Shown here: piece by piece, positions 1-7,056 of the stretch
Layout of the letters: each line of letters opens with the position of its first letter
Position numbering within the stretch: position 1 is the stretch's first letter
From: a virus
Taxonomy: Duplodnaviria > Heunggongvirae > Uroviricota > Caudoviricetes
DNA length: 7,056 nt
Strand: one strand, 5' to 3'
Virus record (IMG/VR): IMGVR_UViG_2693429562_000006
Translations under genes and position numbers: made by a program
Notes under the pieces: generated by a model
Told to the model about the DNA's origin: nothing
The model's input: only the letters and a program-made list of their open reading frames with translations
Databases searched by the model: none

Positions 1-1176
1 GCGCTGTACTGGATAGCCGCCAGTATCAATATCAGGCCGGGCCATGATTATTATTTTTACGTTCGCAGTGTGAACACCGTTGGCAAATCGGCATTTGTGG
101 AGGCCATCGGTCGGGCGAGCGATGATGCAGAAGGTTATCTGAATTTTTATAAAGGGTTGATCAATAAAACGCATCTCGGCAAGGAGTTGTGGACGCAGAT
201 TGATAACGGTCAGCTTGCGCCGGACCTGACTGAAATCAGGACGTCCATTACGAATGTCAGCAATGAAATCACGCAAACCGTCAATAAAAAACTGGAAAAT
301 CAGAGTGCTGCAATCCAGCAGATACAGAAAGTTCAGGTTGATACAAATAATAACCTGAACAGCATGTGGGCTGTGAAGCTGCAACAGATGAAGGACGGAC
401 GCCTTTATATTGCGGGTATCGGTGCCGGTATTGAGAATACGCCAGCAGGAATGCAGAGTCAGGTGCTGCTGGCGGCAGACAGGATTGCGATGATTAATCC
501 TGCGAATGGCAACACAAAGCCGATGTTTGTTGGTCAGGGCGATCAGATATTCATGAACGACGTGTTCCTGAAATGCCTGACGGCTCCGACCATTACCAGC
601 GGCGGTAATCCTCCGGCATTTTCCCTGACACCTGGCGGACGGCTGACGGCGAAAAATGCCGATATCAGCGGTAACGTGAACGCGAACTCCGGGACGCTCA
701 ACAACGTCACGATTAATAAGAACTGTCGGGTTCTGGGAAAATTGTCCGCGAACCAGATTGAAGGCGATCTCGTTAAAACAGTGGGCAAACCTTTCCCACG
801 GGACTCCCGGGCACCGGAGAGGTGGCCATCAGGGACCATTACCGTCAGGGTTTATGACGATCAGCCGTTTGATCGGCAAATTGTTATTCCCGCGGTGGCG
901 TTTCGCGGTGCTAAACATGAGCGGAAGAATAACAATATTTATTCGTCATGCCGCCTGATAGTGAAGAAAAACGGTGCTGAAATTTATAACCGAACGACCC
1001 TGGATAATACGCTGATATATACGGGTGTTATTGATATGCCTGCCGGTCACGGTCACATGACGCTGGAGTTTTCTGTATCGGCATGGCTGGTAAATGGCTG
1101 GTATCCCACAGCAAGTATCAGCGATTTGCTGGTTGTGGTGATGAAGAAAGCCACTGCAGGCATCACGATTAGCTGA
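1..1176 (+). CDS. J: Tail tip host-specificity protein J, C-terminal portion (5'-partial; the frame is open from base 1, so the listed ATG at 70 is internal)
   Basis: Frame 1 has no stop from base 1 to the TGA at 1174-1176. The translation ([35 protein letters not shown]..., ...[54 protein letters not shown]...) matches my recollection of the lambda J C-terminal region. Synteny J-lom-stf-tfa supports it. Confidence 0.8.
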
Positions 1177-1243: not shown

Positions 1244-1843
1244 ATGCGTAAAGTTTGTGCAGCCATTTTGTCCGCAGCCATTTGCCTGGCCGTATCCGGT
1301 GCGCCTGCATGGGCGTCTGAACATCAGTCCACGCTGAGCGCCGGGTATCTTCAGACCCATACTGATATGCCAGGCAGCGATGACCTGAAGGGCATTAACG
1401 TGAAATACCGTTATGAGTTTACGGACACGCTGGGGCTGATTACGTCATTCAGTTATGCCAACGCTGAAGATGAGCAAAAAACGCATTACAGCGATACCCG
1501 CTGGCATGAGGATTCCGTGCGTAACCGCTGGTTCAGCGTGATGGCGGGGCCGTCTGTGCGCGTGAATGAATGGTTCAGCGCGTATGCGATGGCGGGCGTG
1601 GCTTACAGCCGTGTGTCGACCTTCTCCGGGGATTATCTCCGCGTAACTGACAACAAGGGGAAAACGCACGATGTGCTGACCGGAAGTGATGGCGGTCGCC
1701 ACAGCAACACGTCTCTGGCGTGGGGGGCTGGCGTGCAGTTTAACCCGACCGAATCCGTGGCCATTGACCTTGCTTATGAAGGTTCCGGCAGTGGTGACTG
1801 GCGCACTGACGGTTTCATCGTGGGTGTCGGTTATAAGTTCTGA
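1244..1843 (+). CDS. lom: Lom outer-membrane protein (Ail/Lom family beta-barrel; lysogenic-conversion moron)
   Basis: 199-aa ORF. SD-like gagagg sits 7 nt upstream of the ATG. N-terminus MRKVCAAILSAAICLAVSGAPAWA looks like a signal peptide with an AWA cleavage site. C-terminus ...GFIVGVGYKF ends in an aromatic residue, typical of outer-membrane beta-barrels. Overall it resembles lambda Lom and sits in the lambda position between J and stf. Confidence 0.9.
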   Translation: MRKVCAAILSAAICLAVSGAPAWASEHQSTLSAGYLQTHTDMPGSDDLKGINVKYRYEFTDTLGLITSFSYANAEDEQKTHYSDTRWHEDSVRNRWFSVMAGPSVRVNEWFSAYAMAGVAYSRVSTFSGDYLRVTDNKGKTHDVLTGSDGGRHSNTSLAWGAGVQFNPTESVAIDLAYEGSGSGDWRTDGFIVGVGYKF

Positions 1844-1938
1844 TTAGCCAGGTAACACAGTGTTATGACTGCCCGCTGGTTCAGGCGGGCTTTTTGTGGG
1901 GTGAATATGGCAGTAAAGATTTCAGGTGTACTGAAAGA
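1687..1938 (+). repeat. Copy A of a duplicated segment (lom 3' end + intergenic terminator + first 32 nt of stf)
   Basis: Direct repeat of 2474-2643 with near-identity by eye. Copy B lacks the 83 bp at 1721-1803 and differs by a few substitutions and one extra T. Confidence 0.85.
1871..1895 (+). terminator. Putative rho-independent terminator downstream of lom
   Basis: gcccgc (1871-1876) / gcgggc (1885-1890) stem followed by ttttt (1891-1895). Confidence 0.5.
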
Positions 1939-2233
1939 TGGGGCGGGTAAACCTGTCGTAAATTGTGCGATTGAACTGCGGGCCAGAAGAACCAGTCCGA
2001 CCGTTGTGGCACACGTTGTTGCCACTTGCGTGACGGACAATAACGGTGCTTATGTGATTGAGGCTGAGCCGGGGTATTACGAGGTTGCGCTTCACTGTAA
2101 CGGCTGGCAGCCAACCCGTGTCGGGGATATTGATGTGGCACCGACTGATGCACCGGGGACACTGAACGCGTTTCTGAATGCACCAAAGGATGGTGATTTA
2201 CGTCCGGAGGTGATGAAGTGTCAGCGCCAGTGA
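1907..2233 (+). pseudogene. Truncated side tail fibre gene: a diverged N-terminal domain (~102 aa of Stf-like sequence) followed by 6 foreign codons and a stop
   Basis: Begins [12 protein letters not shown], identical to the N-terminus of the intact stf at 2612, then runs colinear but diverged (...PGTLNAFLNAPKDGDLRPEV versus ...[20 protein letters not shown]). Similarity stops after codon ~102 (nt ~2212). The tail MKCQRQ-stop reads into the adjacent IS-like sequence. The listed ATG at 1865 lies inside the lom terminator hairpin, so 1907 is the more likely start. Confidence 0.55.
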
Positions 2234-2462
2234 TATAAGACGGTAATTCGCCATTTGGATTGTCCGCTCCACCCAACATGTTGTTTCCTTAAGGTTCTCA
2301 CACCAGAAAGGACATCAACATGCTGAGCAGAGAGGACTTTTACATGATAAAGCAAATGCGCCAGCAGGGCGCGTACATCGTCGATATTGCGACTCAGATT
2401 GGTTGCTCTGAACGGACGGTCAGACGCTACCTCAAATACCCTGAACCGCCAGCCAGAAAGAC
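2219..2462 (+). mobile_element. Left end of an IS21-family insertion sequence (IS100-like), truncated by the N gap; left boundary approximate (2211-2221)
   Basis: Stf homology ends at ~2212. The sequence from tgtcagcgcc onward carries, about 100 nt in, an ORF whose N-terminus (MLSREDFYMIKQMRQQGAYIVDIATQIGCSERTVRRYLKYPEPPARK) I recognise as the helix-turn-helix start of an IS21-family IstA transposase. Recognition is from memory, not a search. Confidence 0.5.
2320..2462 (+). CDS. istA: IstA transposase, N-terminal 47 codons only (3'-truncated at the assembly gap)
   Basis: ATG at 2320 preceded by aaagga. The HTH-like motif CSERTVRRYL is present. The ORF runs directly into the N run. Confidence 0.5.
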
Positions 2463-2473
2463 NNNNNNNNNNN
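2463..2473. other. Assembly or scaffold gap (11 N)
   Basis: A run of n characters in the sequence. The rest of the IS21-family element is not represented. Confidence 0.95.
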
Positions 2474-2547
2474 TGATGGCGGTCGCCACAGCAACACGTC
2501 TCTGGCGCACTGACGGTTTCATCGTGGGTGTCGGTTATAAATTCTGA
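2474..2547 (+). pseudogene. lom: Second-copy lom 3' remnant (5'-truncated, with an 83-bp internal deletion relative to 1687-1843)
   Basis: 2474-2507 matches 1687-1720 and 2508-2547 matches 1804-1843, ending in the same ...WRTDGFIVGVGYKF-stop. The missing block is bounded by ctggcg in copy A (1715-1720 and 1798-1803). The listed 75-aa ORF 2320-2547 is a chimera reading across the gap. Confidence 0.7.
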
Positions 2548-2574
2548 TTAGCCAGGTAACACAGTGTTATGACA

Positions 2575-2600
2575 GCCCGCCGGTTCAGGCGGGCTTTTTT
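2575..2600 (+). terminator. Putative rho-independent terminator (second copy of the lom terminator)
   Basis: gcccgcc / ggcgggc stem followed by tttttt (2595-2600). The t to c change relative to copy A adds one base pair to the stem. Confidence 0.5.
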
Positions 2601-2611
2601 GTGGGGTGAAT

Positions 2612-5600
2612 ATGGCAGTAAAGATTTCAGGTGTACTGAAAGACGGCACAGGAAAACCGGTACAGAACTGCACAATCCAGCTGAAAGCAAAACGTAACAG
2701 CACCACGGTGGTGGTGAACACGCTGGCCTCAGAAAATCCGGATGAAGCCGGGCGTTACAGCATGGACGTTGAGTACGGTCAGTACAGCGTTATTCTGTTG
2801 GTGGAAGGATTCCCGCCGTCACATGCCGGGACCATCACCGTGTATGAAGATTCCCGACCCGGTACGCTGAATGATTTTCTCGGTGCCATGACGGAGGATG
2901 ATGCCCGTCCGGAGGCACTGCGCCGTTTTGAGCTGATGGTGGAAGAGGTGGCGCGTAACGCGTCCGCGGTGGCACAGAACACGGCAGCCGCGAAGAAATC
3001 AGCCAGCGATGCCAGCACATCAGCCCGTGAGGCGGCAACCCATGCGACTGATGCTGCAGATTCAGCACGTGCAGCCAGCACGTCAGCCGGACAGGCCGCT
3101 TCGTCGGCTCAGTCAGCGTCTTCCAGCGCAGGAACGGCATCAACAAAGGCCACTGAAGCCTCAAAAAGTGCTGCCGCTGCAGAGTCCTCAAAAAGCGCGG
3201 CGGCTACCAGTGCCGGTGCGGCGAAAACGTTAGAAACGAATGCGGCAGCGTCACAACAATCAGCAGCCACTTCTGCATCCACCGCGACCACGAAAGCGTC
3301 AGAAGCTGCCACCTCAGCCCGGGATGCGTCGGCTTCAAAAGAGGCGGCAAAATCATCAGAAACGAACGCATCATCAAGCGCCAGTAGCGCAGCTTCCTCG
3401 GCGACGGCGGCTGCAAATTCTGCGAAGGCGGCCAAAACGTCCGAGACGAACGCCAGGTCTTCTGAAACGGCAGCGGGACAGAGTGCCTCAGCTGCGGCAG
3501 GCTCAAAAACAGCGGCTGCGTCGTCTGCCAGCGCCGCGTCAACAAGTGCCGGGCAGGCCTCAGCCAGTGCCACCGCCGCCGGAAAATCGGCAGAAAGCGC
3601 CGCATCATCCGCTTCAACAGCCACAACGAAGGCTGGCGAAGCCACTGAGCAGGCCACGGCAGCAGCGAGGTCAGCTTCCGCAGCGAAGACATCCGAAACG
3701 AACGCGAAAGCGTCGGAAACCCGTGCAGAATCCTCAAAAACGGCTGCCGCATCGTCCGCCAGTTCGGCGGCGTCATCGGCATCATCGGCGTCTGCTTCAA
3801 AAGATGAGGCGACCAGACAGGCGTCAGCAGCGAAGGGCAGCGCCACGACGGCATCCACGAAGGCGACAGAGGCTGCTGGTAGTGCGACGGCAGCAGCTCA
3901 GAGCAAAAGTACGGCGGAATCTGCAGCAACGCGCGCTGAGACAGCGGCAAAACGGGCAGAGGATATTGCATCCGCCGTGGCGCTTGAGGATGCGAGCACG
4001 ACGAAAAAGGGGATAGTACAGCTCAGTAGTGCGACTAACAGCACTTCCGAGTCACTGGCGGCAACACCAAAAGCCGTTAAGGCCGCGTATGACCTGGCTA
4101 ACGGGAAATACACCGCACAGGATGCAACGACAGCACAGAAAGGGATAATCCAGCTAAGCAGCGCGACCAACAGCACGTCTGAAACGCTGGCGGCAACGCC
4201 AAAGGCAGTAAAAGCAGCCAATGACAATGCTGAGAAACGTCTGCAGAAAGATCAGAACGGTGCGGATATCCCTGGCAAAGACACCTTTACGAAAAATATT
4301 GGTGCCTGCCGTGCCTTCGGTGGGTCAGTAAGCACAACAACAGGAAACTGGACGACTGCACAGTTTATCGAGTGGCTGGATTCTCAGGGAGCATTTAACC
4401 ATCCATACTGGATGTGCAAGGGTTCCTGGTCTTATGGCAATAATAAAATCATTACTGATACTGGCTGCGGTAATATTCATCTCGCCGGAGCTGTCATTGA
4501 AGTAATGGGGATAAAGTCAGCGATGACGATCCGCATTACCACTCCGACCACATCCAGCGGTGGCGGAACAACCAACGCCCAGTTTACCTATATTAATCAC
4601 GGAACAGATTATTCACCTGGCTGGCGAAGGGACTATAACTCCAGAAATAAGCCAACGGCATCAGAGATCGGGGCGCTACCGTCAGGTGGAACAGCAGTAT
4701 CATCAGTTAATCTGGCTTCAAAAGGTCGGGTAGCCGCGCTGACAGACAATACGCAGGGGGCAGCAGGTCTTGAGTTATACGAGGTGTATAACAACGGATA
4801 TCCAACAGCGTATGGAAATATCATTCACCTGAAAGGGATGACAGCCGTTGGCGAAGGTGAGTTACTCATCGGCTGGAGTGGTACAAGCGGTGCTCATGCT
4901 CCGGCATTTATTCGTTCACGACGGGATACGACCGACGCAAACTGGTCGCCGTGGGCGCAGCTTTACACCTCGGCTCATCCTCCTGCAGAGTTTTATCCAG
5001 TCGGTGCACCAATCCCGTGGCCATCAGATACCGTTCCGTCTGGTTATGCCCTGATGCAGGGGCAGACTTTTGACAAATCTGCTTACCCGAAACTTGCAGC
5101 CGCTTATCCGTCAGGCGTGATCCCTGATATGCGTGGCTGGACGATTAAGGGCAAGCCCGCCAGTGGTCGTGCCGTATTGTCTCAGGAACAGGATGGCATT
5201 AAATCGCACACCCACAGCGCCAGCGCATCCAGTACGGATTTGGGGACGAAAACCACATCGTCGTTTGATTACGGCACTAAATCCACGAATAACACCGGGG
5301 CGCATACGCACAGTCTGAGCGGCTCTACAAGTTCAGCTGGGGCCCACCAACATAGTCAGACTGGGCCCAGAACGAATAGCGGGAGTCAACCTACTGGAAT
5401 GTTTCCGGCAGGGAGTACTCAAGTTAGCGGGACTAATCAGGTTGGTATCAGTGGCTCATTAACCAGTGGCACCTCCCAATGGGTAGGTAAATCATCTTCA
5501 GAAGGAAACCATACACACTCACTGTCCGGCACAGCAGCATCTGCGGGTGCACACGCGCATACTGTCGGTATTGGTGCTCATACGCACTCTGTTGCGATTG

Positions 5601-5695
5601 GTTCACATGGACACACCATCACCGTTAACGCTGCTGGTAACGCGGAAAACACCGTCAAAAACATCGCATTTAACTATATTGTGAGGCTCGCATAA
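2612..5695 (+). CDS. stf: Side tail fibre protein, ~1027 aa, mosaic. ATG at 2612 is preferred; an upstream in-frame GTG at 2606 is the ORF-track start.
   Basis: N-terminus [20 protein letters not shown]... and C-terminus ...[31 protein letters not shown] match my recollection of lambda Stf. It contains a long Ala/Ser/Thr-rich low-complexity region (~2950-3990), two fibre repeats, the conserved GAPIPWPSD...SAYPKLA block, and HxH motif clusters in the tip. ggggtg lies upstream of the ATG. Confidence 0.9.
4004..4231 (+). repeat. Two intragenic tail-fibre repeats within stf (about 4004-4099 and 4136-4231)
   Basis: [32 protein letters not shown] and [32 protein letters not shown] are near-identical 32-aa units 44 codons apart. 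Confidence 0.6.
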
Positions 5696-6276
5696 TGGCA
5701 TTCAGAATGAGTGAACAAGCACGGACCATAAAAATTTATAACCTGCTGGCCGGAACTAATGAATTTATTGGTGAAGGTGACGCATATATTCCGCCTCATA
5801 CAGGTCTGCCTGCAAACAGTACCGATATTGCACCGCCAGATATTCCGGCTGGTTTCGTGGCTGTTTTCAACAGTGATGAGTCATCGTGGCATCTCGTTGA
5901 AGATCATCGGGGTAAAACGGTTTATGACGTGGCTTCCGGCGACGCGTTATTTATTTCTGAACTCGGCTCATTACCGGAAAATGTCACCTGGTTATCCCCG
6001 GAAGGGGAGTTTCAGAAGTGGAACGGCACAGCCTGGGTGAAGGATACGGAAGCAGAAAAACTGTTCCGGATCCGGGAGGCGGAAGAAACAAAAAACAGCC
6101 TGATGCAGGTAGCCAGTGAGCATATAGCGCCGCTTCAGGATGCTGTGGATCTGGAGATCGCAACGGAGAAAGAAACCTTGTTGCTGGAAGCTTGGAAAAA
6201 GTATCGGGTGTTGCTGAACCGTGTTGATACATCAACTGCACCGGATATTGAATGGCCAGTAGCACCTATAGGGTAA
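5695..6276 (+). CDS. tfa: Tail fibre assembly protein (chaperone for Stf)
   Basis: 193-aa [37 protein letters not shown]... resembling lambda Tfa. Its ATG overlaps the stf stop in TAATG (5693-5697), suggesting translational coupling. Confidence 0.9.
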
Positions 6277-6362
6277 ATTCGTAATGATTACCTAAATACG
6301 TTATTCTTTTGTTAAAAAAGTGATTTTGCTATAGGTAGGGAGTATGTTCTTGGATTAAGAAT

Positions 6363-6392
6363 AAAAAATCGCCATGAAAGAGCTTCATGGCG
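6363..6392 (-). terminator. Possible minus-strand rho-independent terminator
   Basis: Perfect 9-bp inverted repeat cgccatgaa (6370-6378) / ttcatggcg (6384-6392) with a 5-nt loop. The A6 run at 6363-6368 becomes a T run following the hairpin on the minus strand. Confidence 0.35.
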
Positions 6393-6541
6393 AGTACATA
6401 AACGTACAAAATGTGATGAAAGTAGAGTGGCGTAAGCCACTATATTAAGATATGACAATAGCGAAGAAAAGTAAATAACATTTTATGGACGTTTAATTGT
6501 TAATTATAAAAACTAGAGTGCCCGATATTGTTTATCTTGCT

Positions 6542-6643
6542 TTAAAATAATGTACTCAAACCAAATTTTTGAGCTAAAAGCTCAAATAATATAAATGCAA
6601 TAATAATGTTTAATAAGACAATTAGCTTGCTTTGTATTTTCAT
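6542..6643 (-). CDS. Speculative small hydrophobic ORF (33 aa, MKIQSKLIVLLNIIIAFILFELLAQKFGLSTLF)
   Basis: Hand translation of the minus strand: ATG at 6643 to TAA at 6542-6544. It has a ~18-residue hydrophobic core. There is no clear SD, and AT-rich DNA biases towards I/L/F/K codons, so this may be chance. Confidence 0.15.
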   Translation of the reverse strand: MKIQSKLIVLLNIIIAFILFELLAQKFGLSTLF

Positions 6644-6677
6644 TTCGGAATACTGTTAAGTAACTTTGATGACCCTA

Positions 6678-6706
6678 ACAATAGATCGGAATTTTCTTAG
6701 AGTCAA
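6678..6706 (-). promoter_or_regulatory. Candidate sigma70-like promoter on the minus strand, upstream of the small ORF
   Basis: On the minus strand: TTGACT (complement of + 6701-6706), a 17-bp spacer, then TATTGT (complement of + 6678-6683). This is about 35 nt upstream of the ATG at 6643. Confidence 0.2.
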
Positions 6707-7025
6707 TGGTCACTGTTTTTGCTTGCAAAGCAAATGTTTTGGTGGTTATAAGTCGTCTTAATATAGTCACGCATGCAACTTGTTCCATGCGGAGATTAAA
6801 GATTGGAATATAACGCGAAGATGGAATTAAATTACATTTGCAATAATTAATTTATTATTACTCAATAATTACCGATATTATTATTGTAAATTAATCATTA
6901 GAATGCAAAAAGAAATGTAACGGCAAAATAAGAGGACGATAGCTGAGAAAAAAGCGTGCTTTCCCAATCTGGGGCAAATCACGTCTGAATGACACCTGAA
7001 AACAGGTGGTAGCCTCAAGAAGGCT

Positions 7026-7056
7026 GGTGATGCTGCCAACTTACTGATTTAGTGTA
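7026..7056 (+). mobile_element. IS1 left terminal inverted repeat (element continues beyond the window)
   Basis: ggtgatgctgccaacttactgatttagtgta matches the IS1 left end as I recall it (GGTGATGCTGCCAACTTACTGAT...). Only 31 bp are present. Confidence 0.7.

What the first reader, a model, noticed from the sequence alone, without database searches (positions are those of the whole stretch)
1687..2643. Duplicated lom-3'/stf-5' junction flanking an IS21-family fragment and an N gap
The ~250-bp block covering the lom 3' end, its terminator and the first 11 codons of stf occurs twice (1687-1938 and 2474-2643). Between the copies lie a truncated diverged stf, an IS21-family left end and an 11-N gap. 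Copy B has an 83-bp deletion bounded by ctggcg in copy A plus point differences, so the copies are diverged paralogues, not a trivial assembly duplicate. This is either a real IS-mediated fusion of two lambdoid tail-fibre loci or a scaffold join of contigs from two different prophages.
Basis: seen in the sequence. Interest (0 to 1): 0.55.

Follow-up and report, generated by a model that had tools for sequence, protein, structure and literature searches.

The report
Scaffold join of two prophage tails
The apparent duplication is two different Shigella sonnei prophage tail-fibre regions, about 680 kb apart in finished genomes, placed side by side across an N gap by a draft-assembly scaffolder, so it is an assembly artefact and not a biological rearrangement.

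Summary
1687-1938 and 2474-2643 are diverged copies of the lom-3'/terminator/stf-5' block. Copy B has an 83-bp deletion between CTGGCG repeats. A truncated stf, an IS21 left end and 11 N lie between the copies.

The adjacency is not real. The source is Shigella sonnei. Window 1-2462 matches one lambdoid prophage remnant over its whole length (99.9%, e.g. FORC_011; region pp20 of strain 75/02). Window 2474-7056 matches another prophage (pp2 of 75/02) with one mismatch.

In three finished chromosomes that carry both loci, they lie 681-688 kb apart. In all 21 retrieved loci with the stf'::IS21 junction, IS21 simply continues past 2462, and none holds the start of contig 2 nearby. In all 10 loci of the second prophage, contig 2 is preceded by the 5' part of its own lom and a different J gene.

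All three base differences from finished genomes are swaps between the two paralogues. Other short-read S. sonnei drafts show chimeric consensus and N-joined paralogous fragments in this same region.

The real features are ordinary and known. They are an IS21 insertion in stf (4-bp target duplication GAAG), a lom pseudogene caused by an 83-bp microhomology deletion, and an IS1 end at the window's end. Interest is low.

The parts
1..1176 (+). 3' part of tail-tip gene J of prophage 1 (P1; the sit-linked lambdoid remnant, 75/02pp20)
   Evidence: Pfam Ig_J_second, Phage_Tail_Tip and Ig_GpJ_C. It is part of the 2462-nt contiguous 99.92% match to S. sonnei FORC_011 CP010829.1.
1244..1843 (+). Intact lom of P1 (199 aa)
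   Evidence: Pfam Ail_Lom 1-199/199, E 4e-129. The exact protein is in many S. sonnei chromosomes. Positions 1282 and 1285 carry the prophage-2 alleles.
1687..1938 (+). Copy A of the repeated block: lom 3' end, terminator and first 11 stf codons (P1)
1871..1896 (+). Intrinsic-terminator-like hairpin plus T run after lom (copy A)
1907..2218 (+). stf' of P1: the first 104 codons of a tail-fibre gene, cut by IS21. The ORF runs on to a stop at 2231-2233 inside the IS.
   Evidence: Pfam phage_tail_N 1-104/134. Near-identical to the intact stf of EIEC CFSAN029787 up to 2218 (one mismatch, at window 1870).
2219..2462 (+). Left end of IS21: terminal repeat TGTCAGCGCC... and the first 47 codons of istA (2320-2460). 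Contig 1 ends here.
   Evidence: 98.4% to elements annotated 'IS21-like element IS21 family transposase'. HTH Pfam hits. The full 2130-bp element with a GAAG target duplication is seen in CP179997.1.
2463..2473 (.). Scaffold gap of 11 N, joining two contigs that are not neighbours in the genome
2474..2547 (+). 3' remnant of the lom pseudogene of prophage 2 (P2; 75/02pp2). The 83-bp deletion junction lies at 2507/2508. Contig 2 begins here.
   Evidence: Contiguous match to 4 finished S. sonnei chromosomes with 1 mismatch (2479 G versus A). There it is preceded by the lom 5' part and a different J gene.
2474..2643 (+). Copy B of the repeated block (P2)
2574..2601 (+). Terminator-like hairpin plus T run after lom' (copy B)
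2612..5695 (+). Intact stf of P2 (1027 aa)
   Evidence: Pfam phage_tail_N 1-134/134, Phage_fiber_2 and Collar. The exact protein is indexed in 3688 blocks of the collection. All 10 places read have the same prophage-2 context, and three of the records are named S. sonnei strains (53G, 75/02 and, for P1, FORC_011) in PMC5447701.
5695..6276 (+). Tail-fibre assembly gene tfa of P2 (193 aa)
   Evidence: Pfam Caudo_TAP
7026..7056 (+). End of an IS1 copy. The window and contig 2 stop inside a multi-copy IS.
   Evidence: Many E. coli matches stop at 7025. In S. sonnei chromosomes an IS1 transposase gene starts 55 nt after the point that corresponds to 7026.

Best explanation
The window is a draft-assembly scaffold of Shigella sonnei in which two short-read contigs from two different lambdoid prophages were joined across a placeholder gap of 11 N.

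Contig 1 (1-2462) is J-lom-stf'::IS21 of the degraded, sit-linked prophage (P1). It stops inside the multi-copy IS21.

Contig 2 (2474-7056) is lom'(83-bp deletion)-stf-tfa of a second, largely intact lambda-like prophage (P2). It starts inside lom at a stretch shared exactly with P1 and stops inside IS1.

The duplication is therefore just the paralogous lom/stf junctions of the two prophages seen side by side.

Inferred cause: read pairs or k-mers from the near-identical lom and lom-stf block were attributed to the wrong paralogue. This gave the scaffolder a false link with a near-zero or negative gap.

Shown: both halves are real, contiguous sequences found at distant loci. Inferred: the exact software step that produced the join.
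For: (1) Contig 1 matches CP010829.1 (S. sonnei FORC_011) at 99.92% over all 2462 nt, including the stf'::IS21 junction. Contig 2 matches four finished chromosomes over all 4583 nt with 1 mismatch, including the 83-bp deletion junction.

(2) Both loci occur in the same chromosomes. In CP104423.1 the point equivalent to the contig-2 start is at 1,310,461 and the point equivalent to the contig-1 end is at 1,998,334, which is 687,873 bp apart on the same strand with P2 upstream of P1. In CBDDMI010000001.1 the separation is 682,476 bp. In CP019689.1 (strain 75/02) it is about 681 kb.

(3) In 75/02 the two loci fall in separately described prophage regions, pp2 and pp20 (PMC5447701).

(4) In all 21 loci with the stf'::IS21 junction that reach that far, the sequence after the 2462 equivalent is the next IS21 bases (CCGCCACAAAATGG...). 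None holds the contig-2 start within 10 kb.

(5) In all 10 P2 loci the contig-2 start is preceded by the lom 5' part and a 1165-aa J gene that is only about 89% identical to the J of contig 1.

(6) CP179997.1 has the intact 2130-bp IS21 with a GAAG target duplication, and the same stf continues on its far side.

(7) Both contigs end in repeats: IS21, the lom paralogue stretch and IS1. IS21 is one of the IS types listed for S. sonnei 53G (PMC7373316).

(8) All three base differences from finished genomes are paralogue swaps: 1282 and 1285 carry P2 alleles in contig 1, and 2479 carries the P1 allele in contig 2.

(9) Other short-read S. sonnei drafts (CXFP, CXFS, CXFO, CXCD...) carry copy-B variants inside the P1 contig. 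They also chain paralogous J fragments across 1-N and 7-N gaps.
Against: The reads and the assembly record of the source strain were not available, so the adjacency was not tested in that strain itself. S. sonnei does undergo IS-mediated rearrangement, and strain 75/02 has an IS600-bounded tandem duplication at this very locus. I could not reproduce the contig end points from a simple k-mer rule. Contig 1 stops at IS21 nt 244 with no visible repeat boundary. Contig 2 starts 34 nt before the deletion junction although the exact P1/P2 overlap there is 28 nt. The paralogue-swapped bases could in principle be gene conversion.
Confidence: 0.93

Rival explanations
1. Real IS-mediated rearrangement in the source strain. 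IS21, or an IS nested in it, brought the P2 lom'-stf-tfa segment next to the P1 stf', giving a true composite tail-fibre locus. The gap then only hides IS sequence.
For: Shigella genomes are rich in IS elements and rearrange often (PMC7373316; abstract of PMC8072062 listed). The P1 IS21 carries two nested IS600 copies. An IS600-bounded tandem duplication of the P1 segment exists in strain 75/02.
Against: None of the 17 large records retrieved for P1, and none of the 6 chromosomes and 4 drafts retrieved for P2, shows it. Contig 2 begins in mid-lom at a stretch shared with the paralogue, as expected for an assembly break. An IS-mediated junction would instead place an IS terminus there. On the left side the IS breaks off in mid-istA. 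What precedes contig 2 in every genome is lom 5' plus the P2 J gene, so a real join would have to lie kilobases upstream, out of reach of short-insert read pairs. The paralogue-swapped bases point to assembler cross-talk.
Confidence: 0.04
2. Trivial assembly duplicate: the same single locus assembled twice (overlapping contigs or an uncollapsed bubble), with the differences being sequencing errors.
For: 34 nt at the start of contig 2 are identical to contig 1, and the next 98 nt are 97% identical.
Against: Copy B continues into a different stf (about 75% identity after codon 11) and carries the 83-bp deletion. Every one of these differences is reproduced in independent finished genomes at a second locus.
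Confidence: 0.01
3. Correct scaffold across a true but much larger gap: the two contigs are the nearest unique neighbours in a strain whose chromosome was inverted or deleted between the two prophages.
For: P1 and P2 lie on the same strand about 680 kb apart and share homologous tail genes that could recombine.
Against: Homologous recombination between the prophages would give a hybrid J/lom/stf locus. It would not leave both lom-stf junctions in tandem with the IS21 end between them. In the reference order P2 lies upstream of P1, the opposite of the window order. An 11-N gap implies an estimated distance near zero.
Confidence: 0.02

Closest known systems
Prophage regions 75/02pp20 and 75/02pp2 of Shigella sonnei 75/02 (PMC5447701), conserved in Ss046, 53G and FORC_011
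   Same: Contig 1 corresponds to the tail end of pp20 (4,626,365-4,645,235) and contig 2 to the tail end of pp2 (414,035-462,932). The matches are 99.9-100% and contiguous.
   Different: In the finished genome the two regions are about 681 kb apart. In the window they abut across 11 N.
Short-read scaffold misjoins at paralogous prophage genes, as seen in the S. sonnei draft contigs CXFP01000191.1 and CXCD01000247.1 (CX-series drafts are the Holt et al. 2012 strains in PMC5447701)
   Same: Same genomic region and the same symptoms. Paralogous J/lom fragments are chained across short N runs, and consensus bases are taken from the other prophage copy.
   Different: Those drafts stop 31-53 nt into IS21 and do not append the P2 stf contig. 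Their gaps are 1 or 7 N, not 11 N.
Lambda J-lom-stf-tfa tail-fibre module
   Same: Same gene order and families: GpJ C-terminal domains, Ail/Lom, phage_tail_N/Phage_fiber_2/Collar, and Caudo_TAP. A terminator-like hairpin follows lom.
   Different: In P1, stf is cut after codon 104 by IS21. In P2, lom is a pseudogene.
IS21 (IS21 family; istA/istB)
   Same: 98.4% identity to annotated IS21 elements. The terminal repeat begins TGTCA. In the intact copy at this site, istA (390 aa) and istB (265 aa) are present, the element is 2130 bp and the target duplication is 4 bp.
   Different: The window holds only the first 244 nt. In most S. sonnei chromosomes this copy is itself disrupted by two IS600 insertions.
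IS600-bounded tandem duplication of the P1 tail segment in S. sonnei 75/02 (CP019689.1)
   Same: It duplicates the J-lom-stf'::IS21 junction at this locus.
   Different: Its copies are 9,417 bp apart, differ at 1 of 9,183 positions and are bounded by IS600. That is what a genuine IS-mediated duplication looks like here. The window's copies are diverged paralogues with different stf genes.

Membership tests
Scaffolding artefact (false join of contigs from paralogous loci) | The junction is an N run, not determined sequence | tested here: met
   11 N at 2463-2473
Scaffolding artefact (false join of contigs from paralogous loci) | Each flank is contiguous in independent finished genomes, at loci distant from each other | tested here: met
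   99.92% over 2462 nt and 1 mismatch over 4583 nt. The loci are 681-688 kb apart in three chromosomes.
Scaffolding artefact (false join of contigs from paralogous loci) | Contig ends lie in repeated sequence | tested here: met
   Contig 1 ends in IS21. Contig 2 starts in the lom stretch shared with the paralogue and ends in IS1. The exact end points are not explained by a single k value.
Scaffolding artefact (false join of contigs from paralogous loci) | No long-read or finished assembly supports the adjacency | tested here: met
   0 of 21 junction-bearing loci have the contig-2 start within 10 kb. All 10 P2 loci have lom 5' and J upstream.
Scaffolding artefact (false join of contigs from paralogous loci) | Read pairs of the source strain do not uniquely support the link | not testable with these tools
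   No reads or assembly metadata were available.
Real IS-mediated fusion or rearrangement | An IS terminus directly abuts the newly joined sequence | tested here: not met
   On the lom' side there is no IS sequence at all. On the left the IS breaks off at nt 244, inside istA.
Real IS-mediated fusion or rearrangement | The junction is reproducible in related genomes or in long reads | tested here: not met
   Absent from all retrieved S. sonnei chromosomes.
IS21 family insertion | Terminal inverted repeats, istA plus istB, short target duplication | tested here: met
   IRL is TGTCAGCGCC and the reverse complement of IRR is TGTCAACGCC. istA is 390 aa and istB 265 aa. The target duplication is GAAG in CP179997.1. 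The window itself holds only IRL and 47 istA codons.
Lambda-type lom/stf/tfa module | Ail/Lom barrel, tail-fibre N-terminal domain and Caudo_TAP chaperone, in this order downstream of J | tested here: met
   All Pfam hits are above the curated cut-offs.

The most novel reading that the evidence does not exclude
In this particular strain the join is real. An IS21- or IS600-mediated event moved the P2 lom'-stf-tfa segment next to the IS-disrupted stf of P1. That would restore a complete tail-fibre gene downstream of the degraded prophage, and the paralogue-swapped bases would be gene-conversion tracts between the two lom copies.
Probability: 0.04. Interest if true: 0.25.

Novelty: not a real feature. 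Interest (0 to 1): 0.05.

Why it matters
It matters mainly for quality control. Taken at face value the scaffold would give three false results: a prophage with two lom/stf junctions, a false fused ORF across the gap (2320-2547), and a spurious IS-mediated prophage fusion. It shows that N-joined scaffolds in IS-rich Shigella drafts should not be read as evidence of gene order. It also shows that near-identical lambdoid tail genes cause both false joins and consensus bases borrowed from the other copy. The real biology in the window is already part of the known reductive, IS-driven evolution of S. sonnei: IS21 in stf, nested IS600, an 83-bp microhomology deletion that inactivates lom, and an IS1 downstream of tfa.

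Tried and rejected
(1) I searched 5,426 complete E. coli genomes for the whole window. The best places cover at most 89% and are collinear J-lom-stf-tfa loci without the duplication. No E. coli genome reproduces the structure. The source species is not in that collection.

(2) I tried to find the source scaffold through exact-protein look-ups of the 108-aa and 122-aa Stf' products. They returned only finished chromosomes and drafts that end inside IS21. The source record was not found.

(3) I scanned the species-representative genome collection for the stf'::IS21 junction and for the lom deletion junction. Neither gave a match.

(4) I searched for the deletion allele in E. coli. The listed matches to 2474-2560 (the top 15) are two-piece matches spanning 170 nt, that is, intact lom. 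The best matches to 2474-3100 all start at query position 29. The full hit list could not be enumerated.

(5) I tried to explain the contig end points by a single de Bruijn k (k-1 = 34, 31 or 28). None fits all ends, so I dropped this as evidence.

(6) Rfam found only IS009 inside tfa, which has no bearing on the finding.
Full report
OBSERVATION. 1687-1720 is identical to 2474-2507 (34 nt). 1798-1895 matches 2502-2599 at 97%, differing at 1837 G/A, 1870 T/A and 1877 T/C, and the T run is one base longer in copy B. The similarity runs through the first 11 codons of stf and then drops to about 75%. The change in spacing from 787 to 704 shows that copy B lacks 83 bp. In copy A and in an intact E. 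coli orthologue this segment is flanked on both sides by CTGGCG. Eleven N occupy 2463-2473. These repeats are far too long and too similar to be chance.

ANATOMY.
- 1-1176 is the 3' part of a tail-tip J gene.
- 1244-1843 is an intact lom (Ail_Lom 1-199/199).
- 1907-2218 is the first 104 codons of a tail-fibre gene (phage_tail_N 1-104/134).
- 2320-2460 is a helix-turn-helix N-terminus of a transposase.
- 2612-5695 is a complete 1027-aa Stf (phage_tail_N, Phage_fiber_2, Collar).
- 5695-6276 is tfa (Caudo_TAP).
- Terminator-like hairpins follow both lom ends.

Alignment with the intact stf of EIEC CFSAN029787 shows that stf homology stops at 2218. From 2219 (TGTCAGCGCC...) the sequence is 98.4% identical to elements annotated as IS21, with istA and istB. 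The last 31 nt of the window (7026-7056) are the end of an IS1. Many E. coli matches stop at 7025, and in S. sonnei an IS1 transposase gene follows.

SOURCE AND TRUE CONTEXT. Exact-protein look-ups placed both halves in Shigella sonnei. The accessions returned include CP010829.1 (FORC_011), HE616528.1 (53G) and CP019689.1 (75/02), which are named in PMC5447701.

Window 1-2462 matches CP010829.1 over its full length at 99.92%. Window 2474-7056 matches four finished chromosomes over its full length with one mismatch, and that match includes the first 34 nt and the 83-bp deletion junction. So each half is a faithful, contiguous piece of a real S. sonnei locus, but the two are different loci.

The first locus (P1) reads J (1159 aa)-lom-stf'::IS21. 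In most genomes IS21 is followed by two nested IS600 copies. Then come a DUF4376 tail-fibre-assembly-like gene, a four-gene metal ABC transporter (sit-like: two ABC-3 permeases, an ATPase and a ZnuA-type binding protein, on Pfam evidence), usp and a porin gene.

The second locus (P2) is a full lambda-like tail module with a different J (1165 aa, about 89% nucleotide identity). It continues with a 160-aa truncated lom, the 1027-aa Stf, Tfa, IS1 and an integrase.

Three chromosomes appear in both sets. From the locus coordinates:
- In CP104423.1 the equivalent of the contig-2 start is at 1,310,461 and the equivalent of the contig-1 end is at 1,998,334. They are 687,873 bp apart on the same strand, with P2 upstream of P1.
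- In CBDDMI010000001.1 the separation is 682,476 bp.
- In CP019689.1 it is about 681 kb.

In strain 75/02 the two loci fall in separately described prophage regions, pp2 (414,035-462,932) and pp20 (4,626,365-4,645,235).

WHAT LIES BEYOND EACH CONTIG END. In every one of the 21 retrieved loci that contain the stf'::IS21 junction and reach far enough, the bases after the equivalent of 2462 are simply the next bases of IS21. None contains the start of contig 2 within 10 kb.

CP179997.1 (organism name not returned by the tool) has the undisrupted element at this site. It is 2130 bp long with terminal repeats TGTCAGCGCC/TGTCAACGCC and a 4-bp target duplication GAAG. The same stf continues on its far side. 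So the IS21 event was a simple insertion into stf.

In all 10 P2 sequences the start of contig 2 is preceded by the 5' part of its own lom. The 83-bp deletion is therefore real. It is present in all 10 P2 sequences retrieved. It was not seen in the listed E. coli matches (the top 25 and top 15) or in species-representative genomes. It is a deletion between 6-bp direct repeats that shifts the lom reading frame.

SIGNS OF ASSEMBLER CROSS-TALK. The window differs from finished S. sonnei genomes at only three positions, and all three are swaps between the paralogues.
- 1282 T and 1285 C in contig 1 are the P2 lom alleles. Twenty-three P1 sequences have C and T there, and ten P2 sequences have T and C.
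- 2479 G, six bases into contig 2, is the P1 allele. All ten P2 sequences and the intact E. coli orthologue have A.
- At the other 44 sites that distinguish the two lom 5' parts, contig 1 is P1-type.

The swapped sites sit next to exact shared stretches of 28-56 nt. Other short-read drafts of S. sonnei (CX... accessions) show the same trouble in the same place. Their P1 contigs carry the copy-B variants in the lom-stf spacer. They stop 31 or 53 nt into IS21. Two of them chain paralogous J/lom fragments across 1-N or 7-N gaps. The S. sonnei short-read collection analysed in PMC7373316 had a mean read length of 59 nt, and IS21 is among the IS types listed for S. sonnei 53G.

MECHANISM. It is shown that two real contigs from loci about 680 kb apart are separated only by 11 N, and that each contig end lies in repeated sequence. 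I infer that read pairs or k-mers from the near-identical lom and lom-stf block were assigned to the wrong paralogue. That would create links between contig 1 and the start of contig 2 with a near-zero or negative implied distance, which the scaffolder rendered as a short placeholder gap. I could not reconstruct the exact software step. Contig 1 stops at IS21 nt 244 with no repeat boundary that I can see. The 34-nt overlap at the start of contig 2 exceeds the 28-nt exact P1/P2 match found in finished genomes.

RIVALS.
- A real IS-mediated fusion in this strain cannot be excluded without its reads, but several things make it unlikely. No IS terminus faces lom'. The break points are those of an assembly, not of transposition. 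No related genome shows the structure. The reference order of the two prophages is the reverse of the window order.
- A trivial double assembly of one locus is refuted, because each copy's distinguishing features recur at separate loci in finished genomes.
- A genuine IS-mediated duplication does exist at this locus in strain 75/02, and it looks quite different. Its copies are 9,417 bp apart, differ at 1 of 9,183 positions and are bounded by IS600.

COMPARISON AND VERDICT. The components belong to well-known families: the lambda J-lom-stf-tfa module, IS21, IS600 and IS1. They correspond to prophage regions already described in S. sonnei. The apparent duplicated junction flanking an IS fragment is not a genomic feature. 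Novelty: not a real feature. Interest: 0.05. The residual novel reading, a strain-specific real join, has a probability of about 0.04.

Noticed in passing
window 1282, 1285 and 2479: These are the only three differences from finished S. sonnei chromosomes. Each carries the allele of the other lom paralogue: P2 alleles in contig 1 and the P1 allele six bases into contig 2. The cause is either consensus cross-talk in the draft or gene conversion.
   Followed up: partly
window 2462 (contig 1 end) and 2474 (contig 2 start): Contig 1 stops 244 nt into IS21, although IS21 runs on for 184 more nt before the nested IS600 in finished genomes. Contig 2 starts 34 nt before the deletion junction, although the exact P1/P2 overlap there is 28 nt. 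No single k-mer rule explains both end points.
   Followed up: partly
window 6038-6236 (+): Rfam family IS009 (RF02111) matches at 218 bits (gathering score 117) over the full model. The match lies inside the 3' half of the tfa coding sequence.
   Followed up: no
window 6277-7025: A 750-bp AT-rich stretch (GC about 0.30) with no called gene lies between tfa and the IS1 end. It is conserved downstream of tfa in several E. coli prophages. In E. coli STEC316 an AraC-family regulator gene lies further downstream. In S. sonnei, IS1 is inserted at 7026.
   Followed up: partly
L027/L028 (S. sonnei 75/02, CP019689.1, about 4.617-4.647 Mb): A 9,417-bp tandem duplication covers the P1 segment IS600-tail genes-J-lom-stf'::IS21'. 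The copies differ at 1 of 9,183 positions and are bounded by IS600 copies in the same orientation. It is either real unequal crossing-over or a long-read assembly artefact.
   Followed up: partly
L006-L011 (draft contigs CXFP01000191.1, CXFS01000212.1, CXFO01000210.1, CXCD01000247.1 and others): In other short-read S. sonnei drafts the P1 contig carries the copy-B (P2) variants in the lom-stf spacer. L006 and L009 also chain paralogous J/lom fragments across 1-N and 7-N gaps. This region is a recurrent trap for assemblers.
   Followed up: partly
L031 (CP179997.1) 10976-13109: This record has an undisrupted IS21 (2130 bp, target duplication GAAG) at the same stf site, with the remaining 363-aa stf part downstream. 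It is probably the ancestral state before the two IS600 insertions and the loss of the IS21 3' end and the stf remainder seen in the other chromosomes.
   Followed up: partly
L001 (EIEC CFSAN029787, CP011416.1) 6708-10516: The intact counterpart of the P1 stf lies in an EIEC prophage that carries a frameshifted ipaH effector gene downstream of the tail genes. At the equivalent P1 position S. sonnei instead has a four-gene metal ABC transporter (sit-like, on Pfam evidence).
   Followed up: no
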